64,000 bases of DNA from Pseudogymnoascus verrucosus (lineage: Eukaryota). The stretch is taken from NCBI GenBank assembly GCA_001662655.1, contig KV460246.1; one strand, given 5' to 3'. The notes beneath the pieces are model-generated. The model ran no database searches and had not been told where the DNA came from. It saw only the letters and a list, made by a program, of their open reading frames with translations. Shown piece by piece: positions 3,560 through 31,141 of the stretch (the first letter of the stretch is position 1; each line of letters begins with the position of its first letter). Both the position numbers and the translations under genes were made by a program.

Positions 3560-6228
3560 ATGGAGAATGCACTTGAGCCACCGGGAGGCTCCCCATATGG
3601 CGATAACCCACCTCAGTTTCTCTTGGACGCAATGATGGTATGATTTAGTGACTCTCCAAGCTCACCACCTGGATAACTTTCATTTTGTTTGTCATACACA
3701 TGCTAATATTCTCCCAATATAGGAAGAACTTGGCATTGGCAGAATAAATGATCTTTCCTTGGAAGACAACCCAAAGGATAGAAGAAATGTCAACATAGCT
3801 GTGGGAGCTTCCCTGGCGAAACCCCCCACTAAGGAGATCAAGAAGATTACCAGCAAATATGGGAATGAGATCAACATGTGGAAATGTGAGGTCATTTTTA
3901 GACTACACACCAAATCTAGCAACTGACGATCGAACAGCTTTCAAACCCGATGATGTGGATCAAGATGCTCTCTTATTGGATGACTTGGGAAGCGGCCAGT
4001 CACATCGTCTTCGTATGCAAGCAACTCTTGCTGGATCTTCAAACCGAGGGGGAGGCGATCCAAGAGGTGCTCGAGGTGGTCATAGTGGCGCTAGTCACAC
4101 CAGTGGTAGTTCAAGAGGTGGTGGGGTTACTGGACAGAGGTAAGCCTTTCTTTGACAATATCACCTTTGATCTGCTAACTTTGAATACAGCAACAGAAGG
4201 AACAGAGCTCCCATTGAGGAAATTGCCAACCTACTCCGATTCTCGGATCCATTATCAGTTCTCCGTGGGGGAGGAGGTGGCGGACGAGGCGGCAATAATG
4301 GCCGTGCTGGTACAACTCACGGCCATTTTGTTCATGGTTTGCACAATAACCCACAAGTGAAGAACATTTCTTCTGGGCAAACGAGACAACAGACAACCAC
4401 ACCGCAAAAGACCACACAAAGAAGACCCCCACAACAGAGACCCGTACAACGCAATTCTTCTCCATTGTTGTCTTTGGCAACCCCAGAGTCCTTTTTCCCA
4501 AGTGCCAAAAGAGTTGAGAATACCCAACCTCAGCCAACTACCACACAACCAACCAAGAGACAGCCCGCTACCGGACAACTACCCCCTAAACCACCAACCA
4601 CGAAACAACCAGCCAGTGGGCAAGCAACTGCCAGACAACCAGCCGTTAAGTCACCAGTCGTTAAACCACCCGCCACTAAACCACCAGTCACCAAGACACC
4701 AGCCACTGGACAACCAACCGCAGGACCAGTGGCTCCGATTTCGAAGCCCAACAAACCCCCTCACATTAATTCACCCGCCAAAGTGCCCAAGGACATTGCG
4801 CCTGATAATACCAGGACAATACCAAGCAAAGACAATGACGAGGACCTTATCTTCTGTGATCTTATCTCTTTAGATAATGACGGATGGGTGTCTACAGCCA
4901 CATCCGCTGAAGTTATAGTGGAAGAGCCACCTTCAGCCTATATGCAAGACATGTGGACCTTGGAAGATAGTGCAAATGCGGTCTTCAACATAATGGTAGA
5001 AGTTACGATGAAAGGAATGGCCAAGGAGAGGGCAGTTCTCGTGGAAACTATTGCCAGTGGCGTGGTCCCAGATGGTCGGGGGATGGCATCATCTGTGTAT
5101 GCTTCGGATGAGCCTGTAACCAAAGAATCAATCAAAACCTACTGGGAGACTCAGGGCCCCTCGTTCCGAAAAGGCCTTGAAAACGAATCTATTTGCCTGA
5201 TTCTCGAAGGTGTCGCTGCCGAGATAGTCAGACGAGATGCGCCTACTTCAAGTGATTTAGGCCAGCAGGATGTATCGGGAAGCGTCTCCGAATACGATCA
5301 ATCTAACTCCGACGAGGCTATCAATCAAACCGAGCAGGCTGGCACCCCCGGCAGTGTGACTGGTGAGCCCCAAGGTGTTTCAGAACCCGTTGAGAACATT
5401 TCTGGTAGTCCAGAGACTGCGGGAGACGTGAAGGAGCCTGAAATTACTTTTGTACAATACGATGCCTCCGAGCTATTGCAGCTCAGGAGCAGAGCTTTGA
5501 CAGTGGATAAGAGCGCCTTCCCTGACGAGATCCGCCAGTTTGTTGTCAAGGATACCAATGATACCAATGTGTTGCTGCAGAAACCAAAGATTATAAAGGT
5601 GCTCGGAGGATTGGCGGACTCAAAATGGGCTAGTCCTTCTAAGACTAACGATGAGAATGTTGCTCCCAGCAAAACCAAGGCTGCCCCCATAAAAACTAAT
5701 GCTGCTCCCCTCAAAACTAATACCACTCCCGTCAAAACCAATGTTGCTTCGAGCAAAGTCAATTTCGACCCCAGCAAAGCCAGTTTCGTCCCCAGCAATA
5801 CCTCTCGGCCTTCTCCTACGGACAGCAGTGCATCTAACTTCTTTTCGGAGAAGCTCCTGCCTACCAAGGCTACGAACGGACTGGCAGATTCAAAATGGGC
5901 AGACGAGCCGAAGACCCCTGATACTTACACTCCACTAGATCTCGTTTCAGCCATTTTGAGCGTCACAGTGCCCGTCCGTCCCAAGCGTCCTGGCTTGAGT
6001 GATTCCATGTGGGCCGATAATCCTCCAAGCAAGGGATCACTGACTCGCCCTTCGATCAACAAAGAAGTTGTCGATAGGATGATTAACCCCCAACTGACCC
6101 ATTCAAGCAGAGATCGTCGCAAGAAGTCAATCGAGATCATCACTGAGGCGACGAAGAGGAGGACTGCTGTACTTGAGAAACAAGCGGCTGAGAAGGAAGC
6201 TGCGTTTGCTAACTATCCCCACTACTAA
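3560..6228 (+). CDS. Low-complexity RGG/Pro-rich hypothetical protein, 4 exons (approx. 3560-3637, 3723-3885, 3939-4139, 4191-6228)
   Basis: ATG at 3560 (MENALEPPGG...). Three GT..AG introns join the exons in frame to the 629-aa ORF. Contains RGG boxes, KPPxT repeats, a YDASELL motif and three GL(A/S)DS(K/M)WA motifs. Confidence 0.65.
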
Positions 6229-6739: not shown

Positions 6740-8545
6740 TCATATCGCCGCTTTCCCCAGATCTCTCCATGCCCCAGCTTGCGCCTCTGGATAACCCTGC
6801 TCTGTCCCGGTCCCGCCATCGCCATAACGCCATGTCCGTCGGGGTCCTTCATATTCTTCTCGCTGAGTGAGATGTAACTCGCCATCTACCACCGTCGGTA
6901 CCATATCTTTTGCATCGAATTCGCCGAATATCTTGTGTAGTGGCAAATCATCACGGCCCAGCACCGCAGGATTGATCTTAAATGGTTGGTTTTGATGTTT
7001 GCTCCACGTCGAGTCTACATCGAGTCTGCTGAATACTTCGCCAAATTGTCTCTTTCTGCCTCCTCTCGCAGCGATCTTGGCTTGGATGGATATGTATGAT
7101 GAATCTTCAGTACGCATGTCAAAGAGTGTTGTTGCTACAAACTCCTCGTCTGAACCGCGGTATTTTGAGAGTACATCATAGAAGCCTTGAGAGTTGGGCT
7201 CTGTGCCAAGAGGTTTTTTGGAGCGCCTAGCTTGCACCGAATTCGGGTTCAGGGTCGGTTCGATCGAATCGGGGCACACTCCGATAAAAGGAACGGACGA
7301 TTGGAATTTCACAATCCCATTATCCGTAAAGTCTCTGTCATCTGAAAGAATCGCCGGGGCTTCTGGTGGCTGCCTTAAAGCAGTATTGGAAGGAGACGTT
7401 GACTCGAGAATGGATAAAGGCTTTGTAGGCTGGTCATCTCTGCTCTTGTACGTGTTCTCAGGACCTCGGTTCGTACTATCCGTAGATGCGATGTATTCTG
7501 GATGCTGGGAGGGTTCGGGGACAAGAGTGTCCCCGAATAGAAAAGGAGAGTCTTCTGGTAGAGGAGAGCAGTCCAGCATAGAAAGAGAGCTATCTGATAG
7601 AAGAGGGTCCTCTAACAGAGAAAGGTTGTCATCTGATAGAAGAAGAAAATCCTCTGGTATATGGGAGCCTTCCGAAACAGAAAGAGCGCCTTTTGACTCA
7701 AGAACCAAGCCTTCTGATACGGGAAGAACATCCCCTGGGAAAAATGAATTGTTGGCGCTATTGTGGGCTCCATTTTTCGGCTCCGGAGGGGCTATGCGGC
7801 CATCTGAAAAACTCGGCTTTGAATGCGGAATCTGTATATCTGGCAAGGTCGACTTAAAGGACGGGTTGGAAGATGGCGGGGTAGCTAACCCAGTAGCATT
7901 GATTCCAGTTGACCTGGCTGCCTCGGAATGGATAATGCTGCGCGATCTTGTCATCATGGGTTCCAGAGGCATAATTCCCGTTCTCCTGGCATCTTTATCT
8001 GTCGAAACGTTCAAACTTTCAGCTCCCATTAGTACTTCCGGCGCATTTCCCACATGGTCAGATGACATGTGCAACCCCTGGCGGCCTATAGGCCCTGCAT
8101 CGGACTTCTGGCTCGCAAAACCTGACTCGGTATTTCCTTCAGTAATGCCTCCGACCTTTTGCGACTTGGGATTTCGCCAGTTTTCGATCTCATCTGCGGC
8201 ACTGTGTGTATCGTAGGGTTTCCGCTTCTTGCCTCCGTCATTAGGCCCCGCCGTTGGCGTCAGCGGTGAAAAATTCCGACGTCTCATAGTATCATTGCCG
8301 CTACCACTCATAGAACTGACTTCGGATCGCGGCGTCCAGAGGCCGCTTTCGGACCTTTTCGGTTTCAACCTCCTCGCTTTCAACTTGGATGTTGCGTACT
8401 TCGCAGCTTGTTTGCAAGAGGTACACACTTCATTCGAACTGTCCTCCTGCAGGACGGGTTTATTGCAAGTACTGACAATGCACCTTCTTCCATATAATGG
8501 CTCGCCGCTAGGATTAGCCGATGAAACATTTCCGGTAGCCACCAT
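6740..8545 (-). CDS. Hypothetical, largely disordered protein with an N-terminal 4-Cys cluster and basic, NLS-like patches
   Basis: 601-aa uninterrupted ORF containing CIVSTC...VCTSC, KKRKP and ARGGRKRQFG. Upstream exons cannot be excluded. Confidence 0.65.
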   Translation of the reverse strand: MVATGNVSSANPSGEPLYGRRCIVSTCNKPVLQEDSSNEVCTSCKQAAKYATSKLKARRLKPKRSESGLWTPRSEVSSMSGSGNDTMRRRNFSPLTPTAGPNDGGKKRKPYDTHSAADEIENWRNPKSQKVGGITEGNTESGFASQKSDAGPIGRQGLHMSSDHVGNAPEVLMGAESLNVSTDKDARRTGIMPLEPMMTRSRSIIHSEAARSTGINATGLATPPSSNPSFKSTLPDIQIPHSKPSFSDGRIAPPEPKNGAHNSANNSFFPGDVLPVSEGLVLESKGALSVSEGSHIPEDFLLLSDDNLSLLEDPLLSDSSLSMLDCSPLPEDSPFLFGDTLVPEPSQHPEYIASTDSTNRGPENTYKSRDDQPTKPLSILESTSPSNTALRQPPEAPAILSDDRDFTDNGIVKFQSSVPFIGVCPDSIEPTLNPNSVQARRSKKPLGTEPNSQGFYDVLSKYRGSDEEFVATTLFDMRTEDSSYISIQAKIAARGGRKRQFGEVFSRLDVDSTWSKHQNQPFKINPAVLGRDDLPLHKIFGEFDAKDMVPTVVDGELHLTQREEYEGPRRTWRYGDGGTGTEQGYPEAQAGAWRDLGKAAI

Positions 8546-9867
8546 TATATACTCTGTCCGAAAGCTTTAATGAAAAGGTCCTGATTGGGCCTACAAGGAA
8601 ACTTCCGCCAGCCTGGTTGACTGTTGGCCGCTTAACTGGTGGCCACCTGACTAGCAGTACCTGGGGCAGGTTGCCCCTAGCCTATGTCTGGCGTCTGACG
8701 TAGGTTGCATGTGGCAACACAACAGCGTTTGGATACAAGGAACTGCCTAAGGAAGTTCTAGGTGAAACATTAGCAGTGATTCTCCTAGGTAGTGTTGGAA
8801 AATAATTGCAATGGGTGCTATTTCAGGTCTTTTCAGTTATTATAGTCAGCATTCTGCGAGTTCAGCGGCTTCGAGCCCTTTCAACACCAAGGTAGCGACC
8901 TCGGATCGTCGCAACAAACTTATGCTGGCCCAACGCCCGCCGACCAACGTTTGTTAACACCCACTTTACACCATGCCTTTGGCTCTAAATCACTTGTTTG
9001 CAGATAGAGAGCTCCTGAATACAGTCACTTTGATGTATCCTCCAACTTCACTATGAATCCACTAACTTCTGTGAAACATAGTCTTGCCTTTGTTGAAGGA
9101 CGCGCCTAGACAGCACAGATACGATGTTGCGACGGATCTTCAGCCTTGCGCACATCCGATGTTGAAGGAAGCTGAAACCAGAAGAACTCCTTGCAGTCTG
9201 ACCTTTTACCAGGTTGGTCATCACCAATAGCGGTTAATGGAAAGATGATTGACAGTATAAAACGCTACACATACCGTATGATCTTGTGGCTTATCGTTTC
9301 CGCTGTGCCAAGTCGCAGGACGAGTAAAGGGTGAAAATAACCATCAGCTTTGGTGATCGTAATGTTTGTAATCACATCGATGTTTAGTCCGCTAGTAACT
9401 GGCTATGGTCGACAAACACAGTGTATTCTGTCATGAGGCTGCCAGATCCAACTGCTAGGAAACGTTGGACCTTCTTGACAAATGGGTTGATGGTCGGTCG
9501 TTTGATGTTAGGGACAGTGATATTAGGTATCGCTATGCATGAAATAAAACAACTAAATCAGACGCTGTTATAACAAAAACAGAAAAAAATAAACAAAAAA
9601 AACGTGAGGCCCTTTGAACTCTCTGCACCAAAGAAGTTAGGAGGGTTGTCGTTACAAAGGGAAGCACAGCGCGTGATGGAGTGAAACATTATAATTAAGG
9701 TTGGCGCTAACTAAAATACTGCCATCACCATCCGCTGCTATTATGGGACTAGCTTGTTATACCAGTGGTCCGCGAGGGGGGGCTCAATGAGGCCGATTCC
9801 ATGTGAAGAGGACACAGAGCACGGAATATTGTCGCGGGCAAACAACATACAGCAGCTAGAGTAGCCA

Positions 9868-16520: not shown

Positions 16521-18599
16521 TCATGCCGCCGCAGCCTGGATAATAACGTCGCTCGCCTTTTCGCTCACGATATAGATTGGTAAGGAGATGTAAAACCCTG
16601 GGATCTTGGGGAAAACGCTAGCATCAACTACCCTCAGTCCCTCCACGCCCCTGACCTTGAAATTCGAGTCTAGCACCGCCATCGGGTCACCATCAGCTCC
16701 AATAGGACATGTGCAGCTAGCGTGATGTCCCCAGGCCTCGTCCTTAATGAATTCCTTCATATCCGCCTCCGTGGTGACATTTGGGCCCGGCCAGACCTCG
16801 TTGAAGCCGCCATCGAGGGGAATCAGGCCCTTGAAGATCTTACGCGAGAATTTCATCGCCTCGTAGACGGCCTGGAGATCCTTGTCAGCTGCGCCATTGG
16901 CGGTCACGCCCGTGTCAAAGTAGTTAAAGTTGATATTGGGCATGTCGCGCGGGTCGGTAGAACGGAGAGTGACGGCGCCGGCGTTGTTCCTGCTGTGCGC
17001 CTTGAGAACAATCCAAGCCCAGTGATGGGCATCGTGTAGGGAGTCACTCGAGTATCCAGGGAAGTAGCCCTTGAACTTGGCCGGTGCGCCAGATATAAGG
17101 AGGTCCGGTTCGCCCTCGGCCACAGAGGACTTCTGGACGATGGCGATGGCGATACCATTGGTGCCGTAGGTGCCTTTGGCGATTGGGCCGATGCCGTTAG
17201 TCCACCTTGTTAGGCACGGATCTGGCATAGTCTCCATGAAAGTACATTTTTTCGTGATGAAGAAATCAGTCGGGCTGTCGCCGATGATAGTGTTCTCGTA
17301 GCGATCTTGTAAGTTGGTGCCAACACCGGGAAGGTCGACGACGACGGGGATGTCGAAAGATTCGAGCTCAGCGGCTGGGCCGATACCACTGAGTTTGAGT
17401 AGTTGAGGGGTGTTGAAAGCTCCAGCTGCCAGAATAACCTCGCGTGTGGCATTCACGCTTCCAGAGCCAGTAACTGTAGCAGAACCAGATCGGGGATCGG
17501 CCCTGTAGAGGCTTTGACCATCGAGGAAATCAACTCCAACAGCTTTGGGGGTTGGTCCGTCATGCGAGAAGCGAACCTTGGTGACGAGAGTTGTGAGCTT
17601 GATATCGAGATGGTACTTCCGAGAACCGTCCTTGTTGACAGCATTGGCTGTATCTAGAACTAAGTTGCGAGGTCCATTTCGTTTTGAGTCAGCCATAGCG
17701 AGGGGTACTTGGTAGAGTCCGGCCTTGCTAGATTGTCCTGGGGCATTGATGTCGCGAAGCAAAACTTGACCAAGACCTCCAACAGTGTTGACCAAAAGTC
17801 CAAGTAGACCCTTACCCATTGCAGTGCCAGCGGCAATGATGAGCGAGAGGAGCTTTGGGTCTTCAATCACAAGCGACAGGTCTGTAAGAGCTGTCCCAAG
17901 CCATCCATCAAAGCCATGGCCAATGATGCTGCTGGGGAGGTAGCGGTTCCTCTCTAGCTTCATGAAATACTTTCTCATCTTGTCTGGGCTCCAGGAATTA
18001 TCTCCTGTAATGGTCGCAATATTTGTCCAGTCACTGTCGTGTGGATAGATCGTGATCAAAGCATTGTGAGCCGAGCAACCACCAAGTGTTCCAGCTCTTG
18101 GGTACAGAATCCCCAGAGGGGTTGAGCCGCTTGGGGGGTTCAGTCCAACATACTGCTCGCCAGAAGTAGTTTGGTACACCATTTTAGAATCCTTCTGTTG
18201 TCGTGCCTCATCGGAATAATGGTTGACAAAATAATCCCATCGCATCGGTTCGTATTCCGTTGCCTGCAGCTGGAGAGCAGGAACTTGGTACTGTAACGCG
18301 CCGCCTTGGTCGTCTCCAGCATCTATCAGGAGAACTTTAAAGCCTGCAATGGCTAAGTTGGCAGCAACTGGACCGCCGCCGGGTCCCGATCCAACGACGA
18401 CGTATTCATAATTTTCCAGCCATGTTGTGTTTGAATCTGCCTGGCGCTTAGAATGGCCTTCATGAGGGTGGTTATGGAGGGCACTGGGGCAGTTAGTTCC
18501 TGCTTCTTTTTTGAGTGTAACATTTTGAGGTATAACATACGCTGCGAGTACAGTGCTTGTAAAAGACAGAAACACGCTCAAAGGCAATAAGGAGAGCAT
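16521..18599 (-). CDS. Secreted GMC (AA3) FAD oxidoreductase, intronless
   Basis: Signal peptide MLSLLPLSVFLSFTSTVLA, KR propeptide site, YVVVGSGPGG Rossmann motif, RAGTLGGCSAHNA, AGAFNTPQLLKLSGIG, WGHHASCTCPIG and LRVVDASVFP. Confidence 0.93.
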   Translation of the reverse strand: MLSLLPLSVFLSFTSTVLAAYVIPQNVTLKKEAGTNCPSALHNHPHEGHSKRQADSNTTWLENYEYVVVGSGPGGGPVAANLAIAGFKVLLIDAGDDQGGALQYQVPALQLQATEYEPMRWDYFVNHYSDEARQQKDSKMVYQTTSGEQYVGLNPPSGSTPLGILYPRAGTLGGCSAHNALITIYPHDSDWTNIATITGDNSWSPDKMRKYFMKLERNRYLPSSIIGHGFDGWLGTALTDLSLVIEDPKLLSLIIAAGTAMGKGLLGLLVNTVGGLGQVLLRDINAPGQSSKAGLYQVPLAMADSKRNGPRNLVLDTANAVNKDGSRKYHLDIKLTTLVTKVRFSHDGPTPKAVGVDFLDGQSLYRADPRSGSATVTGSGSVNATREVILAAGAFNTPQLLKLSGIGPAAELESFDIPVVVDLPGVGTNLQDRYENTIIGDSPTDFFITKKCTFMETMPDPCLTRWTNGIGPIAKGTYGTNGIAIAIVQKSSVAEGEPDLLISGAPAKFKGYFPGYSSDSLHDAHHWAWIVLKAHSRNNAGAVTLRSTDPRDMPNINFNYFDTGVTANGAADKDLQAVYEAMKFSRKIFKGLIPLDGGFNEVWPGPNVTTEADMKEFIKDEAWGHHASCTCPIGADGDPMAVLDSNFKVRGVEGLRVVDASVFPKIPGFYISLPIYIVSEKASDVIIQAAAA

Positions 18600-19886
18600 C
18601 TTGCATAAAAAACAAAAGCTCTGATAAGAACAGCAAAATGAATGACTGCGCTCGATGCTTAAAAGCAAAACTGCGTACAACCACCAGCCTCTAGTATTAT
18701 TTATTTGAGAGGCACAGCTTGGTCCATCCCAACTCCCGCAATGAATGACAGGTACTCTGCCACCAGCCTCGCGGCTGTGCCATTTTGGTCCCCGTAAGTA
18801 CGAACCATGTCAGCGCGGCCTAGATGCCGCAGTCCAGGAAAGGTTTGCCCCCCACTTGGCTTGACCTGCGCCAAGTGATAGATCCATAAAGTACAGACGG
18901 CCAATAAATAACACGGGCCATAAACGGCAGTGGTCGTCATGATGAAAACTGGAGCACGGATGCTTTGTTCGAAATTGTCGCCCTCTGCATAGTCTTGTCA
19001 TGCAGGAACAACAACCTGATTGAGTATGATCGCTGATAGGTGCAATTTGAGCACTGCCGGTTCCTTGGAAGTTTTCAAGATGCCGTGAGCCCTAAGCTTT
19101 CTCGAGGGTAACATCGGCTTTATTTGAAAGTTCCTACATATCTAGTGGATCAAACCGAACAGATGGTATATTATTATAGGAGGTCGTGGGCAGGCATGAT
19201 CCACGAACTCCTATAACTCGAACCCCGAAGGATAATATAAATTTGTCTGAAATGCAAGCATACTCGTACTCCGTATGAACCGAACGAGGGTACAGGGAGC
19301 GAAATTTCAAGCTATGAAACAGTGGCGTCGTCCGGAAAGTTCGTAGTCGGTTATTTGAGCCATTATTGGCAGGGAAGTGGATATGTCGTGCGGGGAGAAG
19401 ATGACTATGAGCGTGGCCCGCACCGAGCCCTTGCCACGCCGTGTGCGGCAGGGATAGAAATTGCGGGGATTCTGACAATGGCGGCAAGACTTACATAAGT
19501 GTCATTTTGACAGAAAGTCACTAACCCAACAAACCTTACGCCTCCGAGTAGTCTCCACGCCGTAAGATTGCACAATTATAATGAGAACAAGGAGAATAAA
19601 GAGGATAATGTCATTCCCCACTTATATTTTAATATGACAGAAAGACCCGATTAGTCTACAGCAACGGGCTAATTTTTTTGTGGCGGAGCTAATCTGCACT
19701 CCACTCTACACTGGGACAAGCCCCTTTGGCCACCCGCTCCCACTAGTAATATGTCCCACAATCAATCAATACATATGTCTTGCCAATATTTACATCAGAA
19801 ATGATAAGCCCCGTATCCCTATCATACATACATAATCGAACAAGTTGAATGGCAATCGGTGGAGGGGTACCCCGTCCCTTTGCCCC

Positions 19887-21477
19887 TTAAACAGAATTCT
19901 TGTACCTTTCGTCCTCCTGACGATTGTCCACTGGTACGAGTCCGATCACCGACGAACTTCCCTCGTGCTTCGATAAATTGGCATAATCGGATCTGCTTTT
20001 GCTTTGTGGCGTCAATGTAGTTGATAGCCTTCCTGTGCTTGACTGGCCCTTCTGAGTTGTCCCGAAAATGCTGGGGAAGACATTGCGGAACAATGCTCGG
20101 ATCGAAGGCATGCAGGCGCATATCACGCCAACTGGAACCTCAATCGTACTCCAATAACCTAGTTCCACATAGTCCTCTGTAGTTGCGTTAGCTGTGAAAT
20201 ATCATTTGCGGGAGTTAGAAAACCTACGTGTCAGATTTGTCGTATTGGCATATTTGGTGAAAGCTCGAATGCGCACGACACTGACGATGGTGACGCTACG
20301 AAACAGGATTAGCAAAATGTTTGGGGTGAGAGGTTGGGGAAGCATACAAGACTCCGACGCTAAACATCATCATGATCTGAATCTTCTTCTTCATCGACAT
20401 GTCGAGTTTGTAGAGCGACGGCAACGGCAATATCAAAGTTAAAACATCGAGAATGATACTGAATGTGGCAGACATCCAGCCCTGTAGATTGACGTTGCGG
20501 CATTTCGCCGGATAGGTACCGTCCCACGCTCTCCATGCTCCCGGAATAGGCCAGCATTGGAAAATAGAGATTGCTTCAAATGCGAGGAGATAGGCCACGT
20601 TTGCAGCTATCAAGGCATAGGCAAAGTATAGGAAACTTTTCTCGCGAAAGATTCGGAGGTATAGAAAAATGATGGAGATCTTCGTGAGAGGTACAATTGC
20701 AACGTACATCAACTCGTCCCAGTAATATATCTATTTATTATCAGCGATATTTATTGAAGATTGTCCAACCTGGGTCTCACGTAAAGAATGGATGTAATGT
20801 CGTCAGGATGGACGTTCCACATGTCTCTGCCCAGGCCATGATTGGCAACTATTCGTATTAGTTGTCAGAGAATATATGCTATTACAACTCAGGTGTACTT
20901 ACGAAGGACTGAAAAGGCACAAAAAGGAATAGTGATGGCCTAAATTCAGTCAATATGCGTAGCCCCAAATATATATCAGGGTAGCCCTACCATGGTCACC
21001 ATGATAGTATAATCGTCTATGCCGAACTGCCCCCCAGCACGTAAAACCTTTGATAGGATCCGAAGACCAACTGTAATTAGAGCCAGGACGCCAAATGTGA
21101 CTCCAACGATAGAAATGATCTTGGTTCTATCTTGTGGTACAACACCGCAGTAGTCATTGGAATACTTTTTGGTTGCGAGTTGGTCTCTGATTGAACAACT
21201 GGTGCCAACGCAAATGGTGATGTCTTTATTTAACTGAGCGTTGGTGCAGATGCACGTTTTGTCGGTGAGCGAGCACTCTGAGGCAATTATCAATTCGGTG
21301 ATACATGTTAACTGTTCGTCCGAGTAAGTTTCTGAGCTTTTGATCGGAACTTGGTGTATATCTTACCCCACATGATGGCGGTGGTGTGCCTTTGGGCGGC
21401 AATTCCACACCAGCAGCCACCAGGTTCGCATTGTAGACTGACAAAAGAACAGTCACGGCTATGGTTAGAAACTTCAT
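19887..21477 (-). CDS. PTH11-like GPCR-type membrane protein with an N-terminal CFEM domain; multi-exon
   Basis: Signal peptide and an 8-Cys CFEM domain (PSCGLTC...C...TCIC...C...C...C). PTH11/rhodopsin-domain motifs GIDDY, GLGRDMW, TKISIIFLYLRIF, IFQCWP, DVLTLILPL and WSTIEVPVGVICACMPSIR. Confidence 0.92.
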
Positions 21478-22380
21478 GGCCACAAAGTCCGGTGTTGAAT
21501 TCAAACGCCAAAGAAAAGAAGAAAAGAATATAACATGGCAAACATATTTGCAAGGTAAGATGGTATATCTTGTAGGTGGGTGAGCAAGACATTCAATGGA
21601 CGGACTTAGCCTATCCAGTGACAGGGAGTACGAGCAGGCAGCATGTCTCTGGCCTCGACGTCAAGGGTCCCAAGTGCCGAGCATGAGTGGCTGGGACCGT
21701 GTCAGTCTGCTCCTGTACTCTACTCCCCACAAGTTCTATAGTTTGCCCAGCCCTACTGTGTAATAATTCTGTTTCTCATACGGGGCCGTGCATTGTAGCT
21801 TCCCCAGTTGTAAGCGGCAAGGATATTCATGGCCGCCCCAATGGCACCACCTGTGCAGTATCTATTGACGGGTAAACGAATATTTACTCTACGGGCGGGT
21901 GAGATAGATTCTTCAAGGAGTCCAACGGAAGACATGCCCTAATTCAAAACACTGGCCGTCATTTTTGTGGATCGAAGTAAGCCGTTGTGCAGGACGTCCT
22001 GTATGTCCAAGGGGCTGCCCCGCTTAAGGTTGCATGGCGGATTTTGTTGGTGGGTGCCGGACCAGTTCCCGCCAGCTTGAGTAGATCGGCACTGCAGAGT
22101 CTGGGGACCGTAGCGCGGTCCCCAGTAAACCAATTTCCAGGGGGCAGGGCCGAATTCCACATGCCCAGCTTCCACTGCGCATGGGGCAATTACAACGACG
22201 AAAAACGTGCACGATGATCCGGACTTTTGGGCTAACTCAATCGATTCGTGGCCGGAATTACGTGCTGGCTGCGCCAAAAGGACAGGCGCCGTCGATGTGT
22301 TTTGATATCTTCTGTTTGCTCTGGGCATTCACTCTTGTCATTCTTTTTTGAGGTCGCGATTGAATTGTTTTTGTTTCAAT

Positions 22381-24016
22381 ATGAAAATCATAAGCTCCCT
22401 CGTTTCGCTTTCCGCTTTCAGCAGTGTCGCCTCTGCGTTTCCCTCCGTGGCCGGGGATTCATTGCTACCAGCCGATGTAATTACCAAGTTGGCTGAAGGC
22501 CTACGTGGCGTTGCCCAAGAAAGCCATGAAAAGCGATTTCTGGTTGACCCGTTGAGTACGCCAATTGACGGTGAGCAATACCCTTCTGTGGCCTGGCCAA
22601 TATCTAACATATCAACAACAGTAACGGGAGACCATTCCTTCATCCCTCCTGACTTTTCAGCGGGTGACCAGCGTGGTCCTTGCCCAGGACTTAACGCCCT
22701 GGCGAATCATGGATATATCGGGCGCAATGGCGTCACAAATGTGGGTGTGGCTTTATCATATGCGACAGGTACTTTATCCTAACGAATTATGCAGGTGATA
22801 GAGGCAACTGCAGCAATCAATAAAGGTGAGTGCTGGCAATTGATTCCGGATTTATGCACCTACTGATACTAAAGCAGTGTTCGGGATGAGTGTTGAACTG
22901 GGTGGCCTTCTCGCCGTCATGGGGACGGTTTTTGTTGGCAACCCTCTCTCTTTGGATCCAGGATTCTCTATCGGAGGGGAATCGACTGCGGTGAGCAATC
23001 TCCTTGGCAATCTGCTTGGGTTGTTAGGTAAAGTTTCCTCTGGAGTTGCCATTACCCCTCGCACCACTAAGACGTTTTACAGGAAAGCCGCGGGGTCTGG
23101 TCGGCTCCCATAACATCATTGAGTCAGATTCGTCAAATACTCGCAACGACTTATATTTGACCGGTGATAATGCCAACCTAGAGCTTAACCAATTTTCAGA
23201 ATGGTTTAACATGTCCAATGATGCTGTCGGCGACTTTAACATCGATGTCATGGCTGAGAGAGCAAATGTACGCTTCCAGCAGTCGAAAGCTACCAACCCG
23301 AACTTCTACTATGGTCCATTCACCGGCATGATCGCTCGCAATGCCGGATTTATTTTCCCCACGAGGATGTTTGCCAATTACTCCAAGGAGAATCTTTCGG
23401 GCTCGTTTAGTAAGATTGTCCGCTGGACTCGGAGGGATTGTTACTAACTTCATCTAGCCAAGGATATCATCAAGAGTTTCTTCGCCGTCGAGGGAGAACC
23501 AGGCAATTTTACTTACAACCAGGGCTGGGAAAGGATTCCAGAGAATTGGTATCGCATTCCCGTCGACTATACTCTCGTCCAGTTGAACCTTGATATTCTC
23601 TACTTTGTTGCAAAGCACCCCGAGCTTGGCAGGTGAGATTTGACCCCTCCAATTATATCGCTTTTTATTCAGCTCTAACAACGCTGCGTAGCATTGGTGG
23701 CAACACTGGAACTGTGGATAGTTTCACGGGCGTTGACATGGACGACCTGACTGGTGGACTCTTGAATGCTCAGACTCTTCTTGAGGGCAACAACCTTCTC
23801 TGCTTCGTCTTCGAGGTCCTCAAGACTCTCTCACCCAACTCCCTGTCAACCGTCTTTGATATCATCGAAGTCCCTCTCCAGATGCTCTTTGATACCGTTG
23901 GTGCTGCACTTCTCGACTTGACTTGCCCAGCTTTCAAGGATTTGACGGTTGGTGGCCAGGGCTTGGGGGACGCCATAGAGTCTATGTTCCCAGGAGCTGC
24001 AAAGGGCAGCATCTAA
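22381..24016 (+). CDS. Secreted heme-thiolate peroxidase / unspecific peroxygenase (chloroperoxidase family), 7 exons
   Basis: Signal peptide, KR site, DQRGPCPGLNALANHG (proximal Cys PCP motif), SHNIIESDSSNTRND, NPNFYYGP and GWERIPENWYR. Six canonical introns. Confidence 0.92.
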
Positions 24017-24348: not shown

Positions 24349-24828
24349 CTATCTCGGACGAAAAGGGATAGCTGCTGGTCTCCCAGCCCGGCGATCGACC
24401 CCCCGAGGCTGGACCTTGATTATTATAGGCCGAAGGTTGTCGTCTTCGTCTTCAGAATGGTGCTGAATCACTATTCGGGGCTGTGGCGCCATCTCCCGTC
24501 GCGGACGGGGTGCGGACTCTCCTCGAGGCTGGGGTGCCGCGTCTCTTTGCGGCCGGGGCTCCCATCGTGGTTGAGGCACGGCTTCTCCTCGAAGCTGGTG
24601 TGCAGGCTCTCTTTGCTGCCGGGGTGCTACCTCTCGTCGAGGTTGGGGCGCGGCCGCTCTTGGCTGGTGTCGCTCATTGGTGTTGAGAGGATAGTCTTTC
24701 AAAAGATTGCGACGAGCGTCAGATGCCGTCGCCCGAAACTTTGGGTCTTGCTCCAGGACGCAATATAGACTCTTACAAACGAGTTTGTAGTCTATCAATG
24801 ACTGGATTCTAGAATGCCCGGGTTGCAT
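24349..24828 (-). CDS. Small hypothetical protein with ~8-aa PQPRxE repeats
   Basis: 159-aa ORF with about eight degenerate (A)PQPR(R/G/W)E units. True start is uncertain. Confidence 0.4.
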   Translation of the reverse strand: MQPGHSRIQSLIDYKLVCKSLYCVLEQDPKFRATASDARRNLLKDYPLNTNERHQPRAAAPQPRREVAPRQQREPAHQLRGEAVPQPRWEPRPQRDAAPQPRGESAPRPRREMAPQPRIVIQHHSEDEDDNLRPIIIKVQPRGVDRRAGRPAAIPFRPR

Positions 24829-25000
24829 GTCAGGCTACCGAGCACTGGAATCCGTCGTGTCTTCATAGTGGGCGTAGTTTTTAACATCGAAAGACATGTT
24901 TGAATCTCATGTTTATATAAGCCGAGAAGATGGCCTGTCGACTACTTTTTGCATCTTCAAATCTATCAACTCTCGCGATATTTAGCGGTCTTTTCAAAAC

Positions 25001-25519
25001 ATGCATTTCTTCAAGATTTTAATGCTTGTAGCTATCCATCTTGGGCTTGCGTCAGCTCAGAAGCATTTGGTTAGCATTACGCCCCTTGCACCCTTTGAAT
25101 GGGAAGTCTAATATATAATAACCCTCTAGGGTGATTTATACAAGGATGAATCTTGTGGTGGCAAGGGAGCCAGATCCCTCGACGAAAATGCCTGCACTAT
25201 TATGTCTGATATGAAGAGTAACCCCCCGCATCCAAACTCCATCTATCCAGTACCTTCACTAACGCAACCGACTACATATCTATTAATTTTGTGGGCAATA
25301 ACCTGCTGTGCTATTGCTACGGGTATGTTTCTTCTTAGTACCAGCATCCGCCACTCACCTTATTTGCCGACCTCGCTATACAGCAATGAGGATTGCACCG
25401 ATACTCTCGCCATTAGGCGTGAAGACGATATAGGTCAAGGATGTAATGACTTTGGAATAAACTGGGCGACAGTGCAACCCGAGTGGCCGTATAAGTCGCT
25501 CAAATGTTTTGGAAGCTAG
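25001..25519 (+). pseudogene. Small secreted Cys-rich protein, copy 1 (intron-2 splice sites degenerate)
   Basis: Signal peptide MHFFKILMLVAIHLGLASA. Exons are homologous to copy 4. The intron-2 donor reads GA (25216) and the acceptor reads CAT (25275-25277). Confidence 0.65.
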
Positions 25520-26162
25520 CATAGGGACAGCAATGAGCATAGACAATAGGTCTGGTCCACATCATGTGGATGGAGTTATGGTGGTGGTACTAGAAAGTTG
25601 AAGACTACAAGCTGAGATTATAGAAGAGCTATAGGTAGAATCTCAAATAACACAGTGGCTGTTCACTTTATGGAGACGGACCAACAACAGCGTGAAGTGA
25701 ACGATTCTTTGATGAAACAACCAGATCTTCTGGTGCACACCTTGGTTTTATAGGACAGACGTATGTGGTAGTTTCAGTTCAGTAGCAACGTTGCTGCTTG
25801 ATCTCAGAGATATTTCTTAGAGCGTCTCGTTATAGTCGTGCAATGTCACACGAGGAATCGCTAGGCTTCTCTTTGCGTCGCTACTGTCTTTAAGGAAATG
25901 GTAGGAGCGCGACATGATTAGTTGCGCTGAAACAAATTACCGCCTCTTCTAAGATTCAGCTTCTCCGGATGCAGTAGTTACGCAGCCAAATCCAAACCAA
26001 TTGTCAGTATTGTAGGTAAAACACGGTGGTATCTGGTGTCTACATAAGCTGAGACGATTTCCCATTGACATCTCTCTGCATCTCCAACTTGATCTATCAA
26101 CTCTCTGCATTTTCAACTCGATCTATACGTCCCTCTCAAATATTTGACTGACTTTTCCAAAC

Positions 26163-26659
26163 ATGCATTTCTTCAAGACGTCAATGCTCCTGGCCATCCC
26201 TCTTGGGCTTCTGTCAGCTGCACCGGGTGATTAGATCGTTAGTATCTAGCCGCCCCTCAACCATTTTAATAAGAAAGCCAATACAAACTCTACCAGGGCT
26301 ATCTGTATGATTATCTAAGATGCTTTGGAAGTAGCGCGACCATAATCGACTCAGGTTGCGTCACCTTTAAACCAACTACTCCCCAGTATGAACCCCTACA
26401 TAAAACTACTATTGACAAATCCTACTATCCTGGCTTATCGTTGGATATATCCAGTTTACTACAGCTGTCTATTGCGAACATTTCGCGTATGTTTTATCTC
26501 TAGCTATCTGCATTTCTGCTTTTTCTAATACAATCCCCCTCTAGTCTTGGCTGTTGCCCGCCAACTGATGGCTATACATTGAAGAAAATTGAAGGGTGCT
26601 ACGACGTTATACCCGAGTCAACTCCCCATTCGATTAGATGTCACAAGAGGGAAAACTAG
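26163..26659 (+). pseudogene. Small secreted Cys-rich protein, copy 2
   Basis: Signal peptide MHFFKTSMLLAIPLGLLSA. In-frame TAG at 26232-26234 and an intron-2 acceptor reading GG (26443-26444). The remaining exons align with copy 4. Confidence 0.75.
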
Positions 26660-27133
26660 GTTTATCTATGTACGCAGGCAGAAAGATGGTTAATGAAGAG
26701 GGGCTAAGTGCAGTGACAGCTATTACCATGGGGAGAAGGCAGCTAGGCTTACAGGGGAGTCATAGGGTCTAAAATGCCAGAATTTGCCAAGGCAAACGCC
26801 AAACGGGCCAACCAGCTCTTCTTTTTCATGTCTTAATTCAGTAGCACATGTCTACGCGTCAGTTTCACATCAGCAGCAAAGTTGCTAGTAGAATCGCAAA
26901 GACGTTACCAATAGCATCTCTCTTGCGGACCAACTCTAAAGCTGCTGATCTTTTGATACAACGTTGTTGGCTTCCGAAAACGTCAGAGTATAGATTCAGC
27001 TCCTCTACCACGTTTATATAACATATCGAGCAGAGATGGATATATAAGGTGGACTGGTGCCCCATCGACCCCTCTCCCATCTCCAAACTTTGCACCTCAA
27101 ACTTCTTAGTATTGAACGGATTTTCCAGACACG

Positions 27134-27625
27134 ATGCACTTCTCCAAGACTTTAATGGCTGTGGCTATCGTCCTTGGGCTTGCTTCGGCCGAGAAGAATC
27201 CGGTCAGTGCTGCGTCCCCCATACACTGTACATAAGAGGGCTAATATAGTTATCCATAGGCTTTTCTATACACCGAGGAAGATTGCACTTGGGTTTATAA
27301 CTGAAGTTGCCCGCCGCGGTGTCTGTACCACAATTGATGGTGCGAAGTATGGACGCTCTTGTCCCAACACCAATATACATATTGATCCCTACTAATGCAT
27401 CTAATCATAGATCTATTAGCCTCGATGGTGATGCGTTAACCTGCTTGGCTTACCCGTAAGTCTCTATCCCTCGACATTACTACCGGCCACGCAAACCCCA
27501 TCCTCTAATCCTAGTATAGCGGCAATGATTGCAGCTTCAGCCATATTAGTATCACAGTGGCAGAAGGATGTACTTCCTTGACGACGGATGACTGGCAAAC
27601 CGTTGGATCCATCTTATGCTCTTAA
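27134..27625 (+). pseudogene. Small secreted Cys-rich protein, copy 3 (single +1 frameshift)
   Basis: Signal peptide MHFSKTLMAVAIVLGLASA. All three introns are canonical. An extra T near 27289-27290 gives TGA at 27302-27304; removing it restores a six-Cys protein. Confidence 0.75.
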
Positions 27626-28195
27626 CTGGGTGGGTCGGATTAGGGGTGGATGTCAACAGATGGTGGTTGTGAACGGGCAGAGGAAGGTCATGATGGTCGT
27701 TGGTTTGTTTTCAGGGCTCGGAAGCTGGCAGGTGAGGTTGTGGAGGAGTCGCAGTTAGTATCTAAAATGCTAGGATTTACCGCGGAAAAAGCTAGACGGG
27801 GCGCTCAACTCCTCTCCTGTATGTTATTTGTATTTGGTCTCACAAGACAGGCTTGCGTGCTGGTTTCAGTTCAGCACCGAAGCTTCCGCCAGATCGCTAA
27901 AGGTATTGCTGAAAACGTCTTTTTATTGAGTAATTGTGATACTATATACTATCGATCTTTTGTTAGGGCGTTGACTTAAAGCAAATTTGCAGTCAGTAAG
28001 TCTTATTTGTAAGCACATTCAGCTGAGATGAGTATATAAAGTAGACCCGTGCCCCATTGACACCCTCTTCTCCTTCATCAACTTCTTCACTTTTACAACT
28101 ACTTCGCCTTTATCAACTTCTTTACTTTCATCATCTCCTTTGCCTTCATCTCCTTTGCCTTCATCAGCTTTAGTATTAAGCAAGCTTTCTACACT

Positions 28196-28708
28196 ATGCA
28201 TTTCCTTAAGATTTCAATGCTCTTGGCCATCCCCCTTGGGTTTGCGTCAGCTGCACCAGGTGATGATATAGTCAGTACTTCGCCTTACCAACCTTTTAAA
28301 ATAAGAATGCTATTATAAGCGCTATTAGGGCTTTTTACATGATAGTGGCTCTTGTAACGGAAACAACATCATCGTAAAGGACTCAGATTGCATTCCTTTC
28401 CCAAACACGACACCTACTACCAAGTATGAGCCCTACACGAAACCACTCGTCGACAAACTACCACTAACCTACTTAACTCTAGTTCCATTAATTTCACTAC
28501 AGATGTTTCTTGTACCTATTACCTGTAAGCCTCGCCTCACACTCAGCTGTCAATATATGGCTTTTGTTTGCTAAGACGCTCCTTATATAGTAATAGCGAC
28601 AACTGCACGTCAGACCAAACTATCGACTGGCAGGGAGGGGTTGCATGCTACGATGTGCCCTACAACACGGATCCTCTTTCGCTCAAGTGCACCAAGCTCA
28701 CAAACTAG
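28196..28708 (+). CDS. Small secreted six-Cys protein, copy 4 (intact, 109 aa); exons 28196-28270, 28329-28423, 28483-28524, 28591-28708
   Basis: Spliced product MHFLKISMLLAIPLGFASAAPGDDIGFLHDSGSCNGNNIIVKDSDCIPFPNTTPTTNSINFTTDVSCTYYLNSDNCTSDQTIDWQGGVACYDVPYNTDPLSLKCTKLTN. GT-AG introns lie at the same positions and phases as in the paralogs. TATATAAA near 28033. Confidence 0.82.
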
Positions 28709-31141
28709 CTCGGTGGTAGCCATTGTCAGTAGGAGAGGACAGATGAGACTATGGGGGATTCGTAGTTACTATCTCAAATAACAGAACTTGCAAGAGTTAA
28801 ATTCTCAACGTGGCAGCAAGCTGCCCTCTCCTATATGTTATTTGGTCTCACAAGACAGGCTTGCGTGCCGGTTTCAGTTCAGCACCGAAGTTTCAGCAAG
28901 ATCGCTACGGAATTACCTATACCGCTTCGCTGGGGTTCGCGAAATGTCTCACGAGAATTTGGTCTAGATGTCTATTCGTGATGTTTAATAAATAATAACT
29001 AGGAGTGCGGCGTGATTAGGTTTGATGAGGCCTGATTAGCGTAGGTTCTGATGTTCAGCCTGTCGAGATGCGATGCTATTGAGTGAGGTATGGTGGAACG
29101 TGGATTACTATAGCTGAGTGTAGAACCAATTGTTGGTATTGGATGTGAGACATTATTCTAGACGATATCTGTATGCTTCTCCTCAGACCCAGGTGAGGTT
29201 TATTGGTGCTTCGGAATCCATTGTGCAAATCACGAAGTAAGATAAAGGCAGGAAGGGTTCAACGATCCCGCTGTCGAATCGCAAACTGCCACAGTATTAA
29301 ATCTCAATTCAGACGATAAGGAGCAAAAAGATAGCCAGGTAAATCGATATCGTCAGAGTGGACCTCTCCTTATTACCCAGCCGGGTATTAGTGAGTGATT
29401 AATATCAATTTCCCCCTCGACACGTTGAGGTTCATTAACTATAACCACATGGAGACGTGTCGTGGTTGGGCTTGACGTCATCGCTGTTTGATCTTATCGA
29501 TCTTATCGCGATGGGGGAGAAGCTGAGCTATTTGTGCGACGACGACGGAAAGACATTGGGACGTGCTTCCAACGCTCATCAGCCATTGATCAGGCTCGTA
29601 TTGCAATTAGTAGATTGATGCTCAAGAATACATACTGTATATGCATCCCATTATACTCAAATGACTCCATCCCAACTCCTACACTCCGTGCCAAAACACC
29701 TCAAGCTCCAGCCCACCACACAGTCCCCAAGCACGCACCACCCGCGCACTCCCCTCTCACCCAAGCACTGCTCACCCACGTATCCGGGCCAAAGGTATAG
29801 TAAGGTGGGGCGGGGGAAAACGGCCCTAGAGCAGACGCGGTACAGTATACAAGGGTGCGAGGGTCCTCTTGGTCCTTTAGCGTCCTCAGGCAACAAAACA
29901 AGCGGTCATCGTGATTCAATACTGTCGATGCTGCTGGAGTGAGAGGGTTCTGAGTCAAGGTGGCTAATCCGAATGTGGGAAGGCGTAGGGAGTAGAGCTG
30001 GCGATTGGGACCCACTCTGCACCAGCACCCACCCCTCAATTTATGTGGGTCGCTGAGGTCGAAAAGGCGGGGGAGGGTCGTGTGCTTTGGTGAGCTGGGG
30101 ATGGGGGGGTTTGGGGGTTGAGGGTGTTTGTATGGGTGTTGTATGGTGATTGCGTGATGTTATAAGGGTGTTTGTATAGGTGTATATATAGGTGTCTATA
30201 TGGGTGATTGTACTGAAACAGTATTGCAACTGTACTGCCAGTAAATAGAATCCCATCAATGCGAACAAACGGCATAGAATTGACTGTACCGTACTAAACA
30301 GCATAACATCATCGCCACCCCACCCAATACACACATACATTCCAATGCACCCTCCCTTTGTCCCTCTGCACACCTACCTACTGGTGCCTCTCCTCCTCCC
30401 CCAATAATAACCAATTGACTCACACAAAACCGTGCTCACATGACCTCCCTACCTCCGTCCTTGCACCCAGACCTAATAGGTCTCAGGTACTTGAACAGGT
30501 ACAGGTTAAAGCTTTGTGGAGGTGTACGAGGGGGATTTTGGGTGGTTTGGTGCAGTTTGGTGCAGTTTGGTGGGGACATGTCATCACCTCGCTCTCTCAC
30601 GCGATCACTGTGATCACGGCCCCGGTCTGTATGGAGTCTGTATCCTTCCATCGGCTGTAACCCGGGAGGAGGTACTGGGGACTTTAGCTCAACAACCAAC
30701 GATAACCTCCAATAGAGCTTCAATCCGTTCCATGGTAACTTATAGTATATAGTATAAGTATATAACCGGCACTTCCTTCCCATTCGCAGTTGCTATCTCT
30801 ATAACCTCTTTTCTTTGTACCAATACACACATACAAGTATCCCATACCCAGACATACACACAACATACTCAGACATACCTCCAAAGGCGTCTTCCGCTCA
30901 ACCACCACCACCACCCCGGCTCGCCTCCACCTCCTATACACACGCAGCACCACCTCACCCCTCAACGTCAGCCTCCATAACTCATCCCCTCCTTCTTACC
31001 CTTCTACTGCTTCAATCAGAACAACTCCGACTAGAAACAATCAACATACATCAGACGAAGCGAATCCAATTGATTTTCCATCTCCACCCTGATACTATAC
31101 TCACAATACACGAAACAGATCTCCCAACACCCTTCTCAATC

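What the first reader, a model, noticed from the sequence alone, without database searches (positions are those of the whole stretch)
25001..28708. Hidden tandem family of four intron-rich small secreted six-Cys proteins (effector/antimicrobial-like)
Seen: four genes about 1 kb apart, absent from the ORF track because three introns (phases 0, 2, 2) split each approx. 110-aa CDS. Signal peptides (MHFxKxxMLxAIxLGxASA) and non-coding flanks are well conserved. Mature regions have diverged almost completely except for the skeleton L(Y/H)xxxxCxG-x7-10-C...SI...CxxY...C...(G)C...S(I/L)xC. This looks like two internal repeats of (Y/F)xxxxC...C...S. Known: a conserved signal peptide with a hypervariable Cys-scaffolded mature domain typifies effectors and toxins under diversifying selection, and Y/FxxxxY/FxG...S is the beta/gamma-crystallin Greek-key signature. 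Inference: an undescribed, rapidly diversifying disulfide-stabilised family, possibly crystallin/killer-toxin-like, acting in host or microbial conflict.
Basis: partly seen in the sequence, partly recalled or inferred. Interest (0 to 1): 0.85.

Follow-up and report, generated by a model that had tools for sequence, protein, structure and literature searches.

The report
Mostly dead fungal secreted-protein gene array
A soil fungus carries four old side-by-side copies of a gene for a small secreted six-cysteine protein, three of them broken, which probably belongs to a widespread class of crystallin-like fungal proteins rather than being something new.

Summary
The array is real: four paralogous three-intron units (phases 0, 2, 2) with signal peptides and six invariant cysteines, in a Pseudogymnoascus genome (genus from flanking genes). 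But it is not four working genes. Copy 1 has lost both splice sites of intron 2, copy 2 has a stop and a dead acceptor, copy 3 a frameshift. Only copy 4 (109 aa) has an intact frame, and its intron-1 branch point is degenerate. A fifth promoter without a gene follows. Mature exons are no more diverged than intron interiors (both near shuffled level), so diversifying selection is not shown; the unusual part is the slow signal exon and patches of flank. No homologue was found in 1.84 and 5.8 billion proteins except an unspliced copy-1 allele, but the search only reaches about 55-60% identity. Cysteine spacing resembles that of Ecp4 (beta/gamma-crystallin, MiAMP1-type), a class already reported in most fungal secretomes surveyed; the fold itself could not be tested. 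Copy 4 is acidic, which argues against a cationic membrane-lysing peptide. Verdict: probably a new, lineage-restricted member of a known class, in birth-and-death decay.

The parts
25001..25519 (+). Copy 1, probable pseudogene; homologous exons 25001-25069, 25130-25215, 25278-25322, 25384-25519; intron 2 (25216-25277) has non-canonical ends GA..AT; frame stays open if introns 2 and 3 are both retained (152 aa)
   Evidence: allele P0001 also lacks the acceptor and is frameshifted in exon 4
26163..26659 (+). Copy 2, pseudogene; exons 26163-26237, 26297-26385, 26445-26486, 26545-26659; in-frame TAG at codon 24 and intron-2 acceptor reads GG
27134..27625 (+). Copy 3, pseudogene; exons 27134-27202, 27260-27346, 27411-27455, 27520-27625; all splice signals canonical, frameshift in exon 2 near 27290
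28196..28708 (+). Copy 4, only intact frame; exons 28196-28270, 28329-28423, 28483-28524, 28591-28708; 109 aa, Cys at 34, 46, 67, 76, 90, 104; mature part pI 4.05; intron-1 branch point degenerate (best 4 of 6)
24889..25000 (+). Promoter of copy 1 with TATA-like TATATAAG at 24914; homologous TATA-like sites at 26041, 27041, 28033
25739..25807 (+). Conserved 3' flank block after copy 1 (64% to the copy-3 block)
27831..27899 (+). Conserved 3' flank block after copy 3; 94% identical to the block after copy 4
28839..28907 (+). Conserved 3' flank block after copy 4
28712..29182 (+). DNA after copy 4 that aligns with the whole copy-1/copy-2 spacer up to a decayed TATA region: remnant of a fifth promoter with no coding sequence behind it
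   Evidence: score 182, best of 30 shuffles 71; no exon match there

Best explanation
An old tandem array of small secreted proteins, now in birth-and-death decay. Shown: gene anatomy, leaders, six fixed cysteines, three broken copies, a leftover fifth promoter. Inferred: the roughly 90-residue mature protein folds as a double Greek-key (beta/gamma-crystallin, MiAMP1/Ecp4/WmKT-type) beta-barrel locked by three disulfides, by analogy with the Ecp4 model C1-C5, C2-C4, C3-C6. Inferred, weaker: it is secreted into soil or substrate and binds a cell-surface target, most likely fungal wall beta-1,3-glucan or a wall-building or wall-degrading enzyme, either to hinder competing microbes or to shield the fungus's own wall; loops between the cysteines set the specificity. 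The copies diverged long ago (neutral sites saturated), stayed functional for most of that time (all six Cys kept) and three were lost recently (one or two clear lesions each). Leader exon and flank patches were kept alike by selection plus local gene conversion.
For: Anatomy and lesions. Six invariant Cys. Copy-4 Cys gaps 12, 21, 9, 14, 14 against Ecp4 19, 22, 10, 17, 15 (Ecp4 positions read in 10.1101/127746); 228 of 200,000 random placements, and 339 of 50,000 under a stricter null, are as close (comparison chosen after looking, null is not real proteins). Y/F-x4-C motifs are the ones highlighted for MiAMP1 and BadA (PMC7886984). The crystallin fold is among families found in over 80% of 20 fungal secretomes (PMC10462633), with 18 members in M. 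oryzae (PMC9447291). The MiAMP1 homologue Sp-AMP3 binds beta-1,3-glucan and is antifungal. Atlas neighbours of exon 4 are 93-111 aa fungal hypothetical proteins, scores 0.77-0.81, lead only. Silent third positions at unchanged residues: 50 of 70 identical in leaders, 51 of 112 in mature exons (pairs not independent); copy-3/4 flank 58 of 62 identical.
Against: No fold was obtained: the two models were of unspliced pieces, pLDDT 55 and 57, and the one structure search gave 0 of 48,161 chains at Z>=2. No Pfam family at E<=0.1 for 8 pieces, no PDB sequence match. The half-against-half test did not recover the two-motif repeat. The second aromatic of the Y/F-x4-Y/F-x-G signature is Cys in every copy and the Gly is kept only in the first motif. 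Copy 4 is acidic (3 K+R, 11 D+E), unlike a cationic antimicrobial peptide. No activity or expression data.
Confidence: 0.55

Rival explanations
1. Same gene history, different fold: a six-Cys small secreted protein of another beta-rich effector-like class (for example NIP2/SIX9/SIX11-type, MAX/ToxB-type or an unclassified fold), with an unknown extracellular partner.
For: Six conserved Cys, paralogues and pseudogenes also describe NIP2/NLP of the Leotiomycete Rhynchosporium, whose predicted fold is a five-stranded sheet with a helix (10.1101/2024.10.15.618441). Internal repeat not significant. No fold evidence.
Against: NIP2 genes mostly have only a 3' UTR intron and a CRS motif; these have three coding introns and no CRS. 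Cys spacing and doubled Y/F-x4-C fit the Ecp4/MiAMP1 pattern.
Confidence: 0.25
2. The whole array is silent: copy 4 too is no longer spliced or expressed, and the locus is a set of recent pseudogenes. Compatible with either fold.
For: Copy 4 intron 1 has no branch point better than 4 of 6 to RCTRAY, where copies 1 and 3 have CTAAT at the homologous place. Three neighbours are dead and a fifth unit is gone. No annotated product in the protein collections although flanking genes are annotated.
Against: Copy 4 keeps an open 109-codon frame, six canonical splice ends, a TATA box and all six Cys. Gene finders often miss short intron-rich genes (established knowledge).
Confidence: 0.3
3. One reading: an actively diversifying toxin or effector family under positive selection in a host or microbial arms race, in the manner of conotoxins.
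For: Leaders 63-79% identical against 25-39% for mature parts; leader DNA 77% against 51%; fixed Cys scaffold.
Against: Mature exons are no more diverged than intron interiors, both near shuffled level; pN<pS in 6 of 6 pairs with pS saturated; three of four copies are dead; the organism is not the bat pathogen of the genus (its proteins differ from the P. destructans entries in the same clusters).
Confidence: 0.2
4. Copy 1 has been reborn as a different protein by retaining introns 2 and 3 (152 aa, with a hydrophobic helix from exon 3 read out of frame).
For: The frame is open over 57 extra codons; a 90% identical allele with the same read-through exists in another sample; the model gives that helix pLDDT up to 91.
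Against: 1,891 of 20,000 shuffles of that stretch are also stop-free; intron 3 keeps canonical signals; the allele is frameshifted in exon 4 (compared with frames; an assembly error is not excluded).
Confidence: 0.04

Closest known systems
Cladosporium fulvum Ecp4 / Ecp7 / CfCE72-CTR (predicted beta/gamma-crystallin, MiAMP1-like small secreted proteins)
   Same: Small secreted, six conserved Cys with similar spacing (against positions); no Ca-binding double-clamp motif in either.
   Different: No sequence match could be tested or was found; first gap shorter (12-14 against 19); saprotrophic host genus; tandem array with three pseudogenes; Ecp4 fold is itself a prediction in that paper.
MiAMP1 / Sp-AMP3 (plant) and WmKT yeast killer toxin
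   Same: Y/F-x4-C motifs, six Cys, secreted, about 80-90 residues.
   Different: MiAMP1 has a close Cys21/Cys23 pair that these lack; copy 4 is acidic; no PDB sequence match; activity untested.
Fungal 'Crystallin' orphan candidate effector family (PMC10462633), M. oryzae cluster 14 (PMC9447291), Z. passerinii G.03 (PMC13525658)
   Same: Sequence-divergent small secreted proteins on a fixed scaffold, lineage-specific presence and absence.
   Different: Those families are defined by predicted structure, which could not be obtained here; none of the passages read names Pseudogymnoascus.
Rhynchosporium NIP2/NLP family
   Same: Leotiomycete six-Cys secreted paralogues with pseudogenes.
   Different: Intron layout, CRS motif and predicted alpha/beta fold differ.
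IGY proteins (PMC4367982)
   Same: An I-G-aromatic word straddles intron 1 just after the leader in copies 2 and 4 (I|GY, I|GF); P. destructans has an IGYP.
   Different: IGYPs are 187-268 aa, three exons, two conserved Cys, with a QMxIP motif; these are about 110 aa, four exons, six Cys, no QMxIP.

Membership tests
beta/gamma-crystallin (MiAMP1/Ecp4/WmKT-type) secreted proteins | Double Greek-key eight-stranded fold | tested here: inconclusive
   Only unspliced pieces could be folded; pLDDT 55 and 57, no structural match
beta/gamma-crystallin (MiAMP1/Ecp4/WmKT-type) secreted proteins | Six Cys with Ecp4-like spacing | tested here: met
   Gaps 12,21,9,14,14 against 19,22,10,17,15; 339 of 50,000 strict-null placements as close; post hoc
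beta/gamma-crystallin (MiAMP1/Ecp4/WmKT-type) secreted proteins | Two internal repeats of the motif | tested here: inconclusive
   Y/F-x4-C at 6 of 8 places by eye; hhalign of halves not significant and off register
   Second aromatic is Cys in all copies; Gly only in the first motif; no Pfam crystallin match
Canonical microbial beta/gamma-crystallins | N/D-N/D-x-x-S/T-S calcium double clamp | tested here: not met
   No match in mature copy 4; also absent from Ecp4/Ecp7
beta/gamma-crystallin (MiAMP1/Ecp4/WmKT-type) secreted proteins | Profile-level homology to members | tested here: inconclusive
   No hit in Pfam, PDB or 1.84 billion representatives, but only exon-fragment queries were possible and sensitivity is near zero at 40% identity
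MiAMP1/WmKT-type antimicrobials | Antimicrobial activity or beta-1,3-glucan binding | not testable with these tools
   Needs protein
IGY proteins | 187-268 aa, three exons, two conserved Cys, C-terminal QMxIP | tested here: not met
   109 aa, four exons, six Cys, no QMxIP
NIP2/NLP | 3' UTR intron, no coding introns in most members, CRS motif | tested here: not met
   Three coding introns, no CRS; a 3' UTR intron was not looked for
Hypervariable toxin/effector families under positive selection | Mature region evolves faster than neutral DNA (dN above dS or above introns) | tested here: inconclusive
   Mature exons 51%, intron interiors 54%, both near shuffled; pN<pS with saturated pS

The most novel reading that the evidence does not exclude
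Copy 4 is an expressed, acidic, crystallin-fold antifungal of cold-soil Pseudogymnoascus with a target not seen in the cationic plant peptides, and the array works as a cassette system in which gene conversion keeps promoter, leader exon and 3' flank alike while mature exons turn over, with different strains keeping different copies alive. It would be a first characterisable member of the fungal crystallin-like class from a saprotroph that shares habitats with the bat pathogen P. destructans.
Probability: 0.12. Interest if true: 0.6.

Novelty: new member of a known kind. Interest (0 to 1): 0.3.

Why it matters
It shows that effector-style tandem arrays of Cys-rich secreted genes, unannotated in public protein sets, also arise and decay in non-pathogenic soil fungi. 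If copy 4 is expressed it offers a simple way to ask what the widespread fungal crystallin-like proteins do outside plant infection, a question the papers read leave open. With three of four copies dead, no demonstrated selection and no tested fold, the finding is a modest annotation gain rather than a new system.

Tried and rejected
Homologue searches: exon-4 profile, 1 hit of 22 candidates; leader profile, 0 of 1,116; exon-2/exon-4 fragment profile, 1 of 206 and 1 in 1.84 billion representatives; the one hit is always P0001, an unspliced copy-1 allele. Control: spliced copy 4 scores E 2.9e-18 against that profile; simulated relatives found 50, 49, 40, 15, 1 and 0 of 50 at 90, 70, 60, 50, 40 and 30%, so distant homologues are out of reach. 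Leader DNA pattern: 0 matches in JGI metagenomes. Synteny via the upstream peroxidase: 20 loci, all 35-63% identical (other fungi), only chance 4-14 residue matches to the exons in the 40 rows shown, and no DNA match to the array. RNA: no RNA holder listed; one run (X1, probably DNA) gave 3 short contigs and no joints; no evidence either way. Atlas: read-through of copy 1, scores 0.77; exon 4 of copy 4, 0.77-0.81, top cluster with LysM14_C on 11% of members, lead only; a paper search for LysM14 gave one listing, not read. Folding of unspliced pieces and one structure search: uninformative. Viral and prokaryotic locus scans did not run. RIP: composite index -0.30 to 0.08 over the array, slightly above the window average but no clear RIP signature. 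IGYP and NIP2 considered and rejected. Earlier scan notes: nothing returned. No whole genome held, so copies elsewhere in this genome are unknown.
Full report
Setting. The window is from a filamentous ascomycete: aconitase, DRE2, GMC oxidoreductase, heme-thiolate peroxidase, MFS, RRN6 and others. Of 9 flanking proteins looked up exactly, 7 were in the collection and all 7 fall in 90% clusters whose named members are Pseudogymnoascus (a first try with stop-to-stop coordinates found 0 of 6). Where P. destructans appears in those clusters it is a different sequence from the window's, so this is another member of the genus, soil and cave saprotrophs by established knowledge. The array lies between a peroxidase gene (about 22.3-24.0 kb) and genes from about 31 kb on. 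No whole genome was held.

Observation. Four units start at 25001, 26163, 27134 and 28196 and no fifth coding copy exists in the window. Each has a TATA-like site 87-163 nt upstream, a 19-residue hydrophobic leader and three introns of 57-66 nt at homologous places with phases 0, 2, 2; 10 of 12 have canonical ends. Six Cys columns are invariant and mature identity is 25-39%. This is far beyond chance.

Gene status. Copy 4 gives a 109-aa protein with six Cys. Copy 1 has non-canonical ends at both sides of intron 2; its frame stays open if introns 2 and 3 are retained, but 1,891 of 20,000 shuffles do the same, and the only database relative, P0001, is an unspliced allele (84 of 93 identical) that also lacks the acceptor and is frameshifted in exon 4 (against frames). 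Copy 2 has a stop at codon 24 and a dead intron-2 acceptor. Copy 3 has perfect splice signals but a frameshift in exon 2. Copy 4 itself has a weak point: no intron-1 branch site better than 4 of 6 to RCTRAY, while the other 11 introns reach 5 or 6. DNA after copy 4 aligns with the whole copy-1/copy-2 spacer up to a decayed TATA region (score 182, best of 30 shuffles 71): a fifth promoter without a gene. A single-base assembly error in copy 3 cannot be excluded, as no reads covered it.

Evolution. DNA identity over the six pairs is 77% in leaders, 67% in a 3' flank block, 54% in intron interiors and 51% in mature exons, with shuffled baselines of 47-49%. So mature exons are not faster than introns; both are saturated, meaning the duplications are old. 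pN is below pS in all six pairs, but pS is 0.69-0.91, so the test has little power. Third positions at unchanged residues are identical in 50 of 70 leader codons but 51 of 112 mature codons, and the copy-3/4 flank block is 58 of 62 identical although those two proteins are 26% identical. This points to nucleotide-level constraint or local gene conversion at leaders and flanks (inference). Retention of all six Cys with only one or two clear lesions per dead copy implies recent loss after long function (inference). No clear RIP signature.

Relatives. Three word-based searches and one full HMMER search of 1.84 billion representatives returned only P0001. The control shows an annotated copy 4 would have been found (E 2.9e-18) and relatives down to about 55-60% identity, but 1 of 50 at 40%. 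So the genes are unannotated and have no close annotated kin, but distant homology is untested because only exon fragments could be used as queries. Pfam, PDB sequences, a leader DNA pattern in JGI metagenomes and 20 peroxidase-anchored loci from other fungi gave nothing. The Atlas gave 93-111 aa fungal hypothetical clusters at 0.77-0.81, a lead only. Expression is unknown.

Fold and mechanism. The fold argument is indirect. Ecp4 of Cladosporium fulvum has Cys at 16, 35, 57, 67, 84, 99 and was modelled on MiAMP1 with pairs 16/84, 35/67 and probably 57/99 (10.1101/127746). Copy 4 has gaps 12, 21, 9, 14, 14 against 19, 22, 10, 17, 15; 339 of 50,000 placements under a strict null are as close (post hoc, and the null is not real proteins). 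Y/F-x4-C occurs at 6 of 8 expected places, the motif marked in MiAMP1 and BadA (PMC7886984). Against: the two halves did not align significantly, the canonical crystallin signature and calcium clamp are absent, and mature copy 4 is acidic (pI 4.05). I put the crystallin-type fold at about 0.6-0.65. The most likely function is binding a microbial cell-wall target, as the MiAMP1 homologue Sp-AMP3 binds beta-1,3-glucan and is antifungal, in competition or self-protection; this step is analogy only, and the same paper warns that shared folds may not extend to function.

Comparison with what is known. Crystallin-fold small secreted proteins are among families found in over 80% of 20 fungal genomes (PMC10462633), form an 18-member cluster in M. 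oryzae (PMC9447291) and an effector-enriched cluster in Z. passerinii (PMC13525658). Tandem expansion of diverged secreted paralogues, also in non-pathogens, is described (PMC9816061), and six-Cys paralogue families with pseudogenes occur in Leotiomycetes (NIP2). IGYP and NIP2 fail membership. Nine literature searches listed no paper on this Pseudogymnoascus family; most listings were seen only as titles and abstract starts, and subscription journals are largely missing.

What was read. 10.1101/127746: passages and part 1 of section 5; its supplementary alignments of Ecp4 with MiAMP1 were not seen and bear on the spacing argument. PMC4367982: parts 1-3 of 6. PMC10462633: passages, supplement list and two supplement passages; the large data archive was not readable. 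PMC9447291, PMC7886984, PMC13525658, PMC9816061 and 10.1101/2024.10.15.618441: passages only. The signal-peptide cleavage rule, the RCTRAY branch consensus, the crystallin signature and the conotoxin comparison are recalled, not from a call.

Verdict. A real, unannotated, old tandem array of small secreted six-Cys genes, three dead and one possibly alive; probably a lineage-restricted member of the known crystallin/MiAMP1-type fungal class; diversifying selection and any activity not shown. Interest 0.3.

Noticed in passing
window 24469-24672: GC-rich repeat with 24-nt period (six overlapping 66-nt copies, 62-77% alike) inside a minus-strand ORF 24352-24834 rich in PQPR; no Pfam match; sits between the peroxidase gene and copy 1.
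   Followed up: no
window 28712-29182: Remnant of a fifth promoter unit after copy 4 with no coding sequence behind it.
   Followed up: yes
window 27831-27899 and 28839-28907: 69-nt 3' flank block 94% identical between copies 3 and 4, possible recent gene conversion or a conserved regulatory element.
   Followed up: partly
window 28057-28180: Pyrimidine-rich short direct repeats lengthen the 5' UTR of copy 4; a 29-nt duplication does the same in copy 2 (26069-26126).
   Followed up: no
window 25375-25384, 27512-27520, 28580-28591: The intron-3 acceptors of copies 1, 3 and 4 translate in frame as (L)YS just before exon 4, mimicking the protein's own Y-x4-C motif; can mislead motif reading on unspliced DNA.
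   Followed up: partly
window 16521-18809 and 20296-24016: GMC oxidoreductase, fungal rhodopsin-domain (PTH11-like) gene and heme-thiolate peroxidase lie together just upstream of the array; no link to it tested.
   Followed up: no
window 4171-6228 and 6740-8566: Two long ORFs (685 and 608 aa) without Pfam match; the second clusters only with a few Pseudogymnoascus proteins (6 members).
   Followed up: partly
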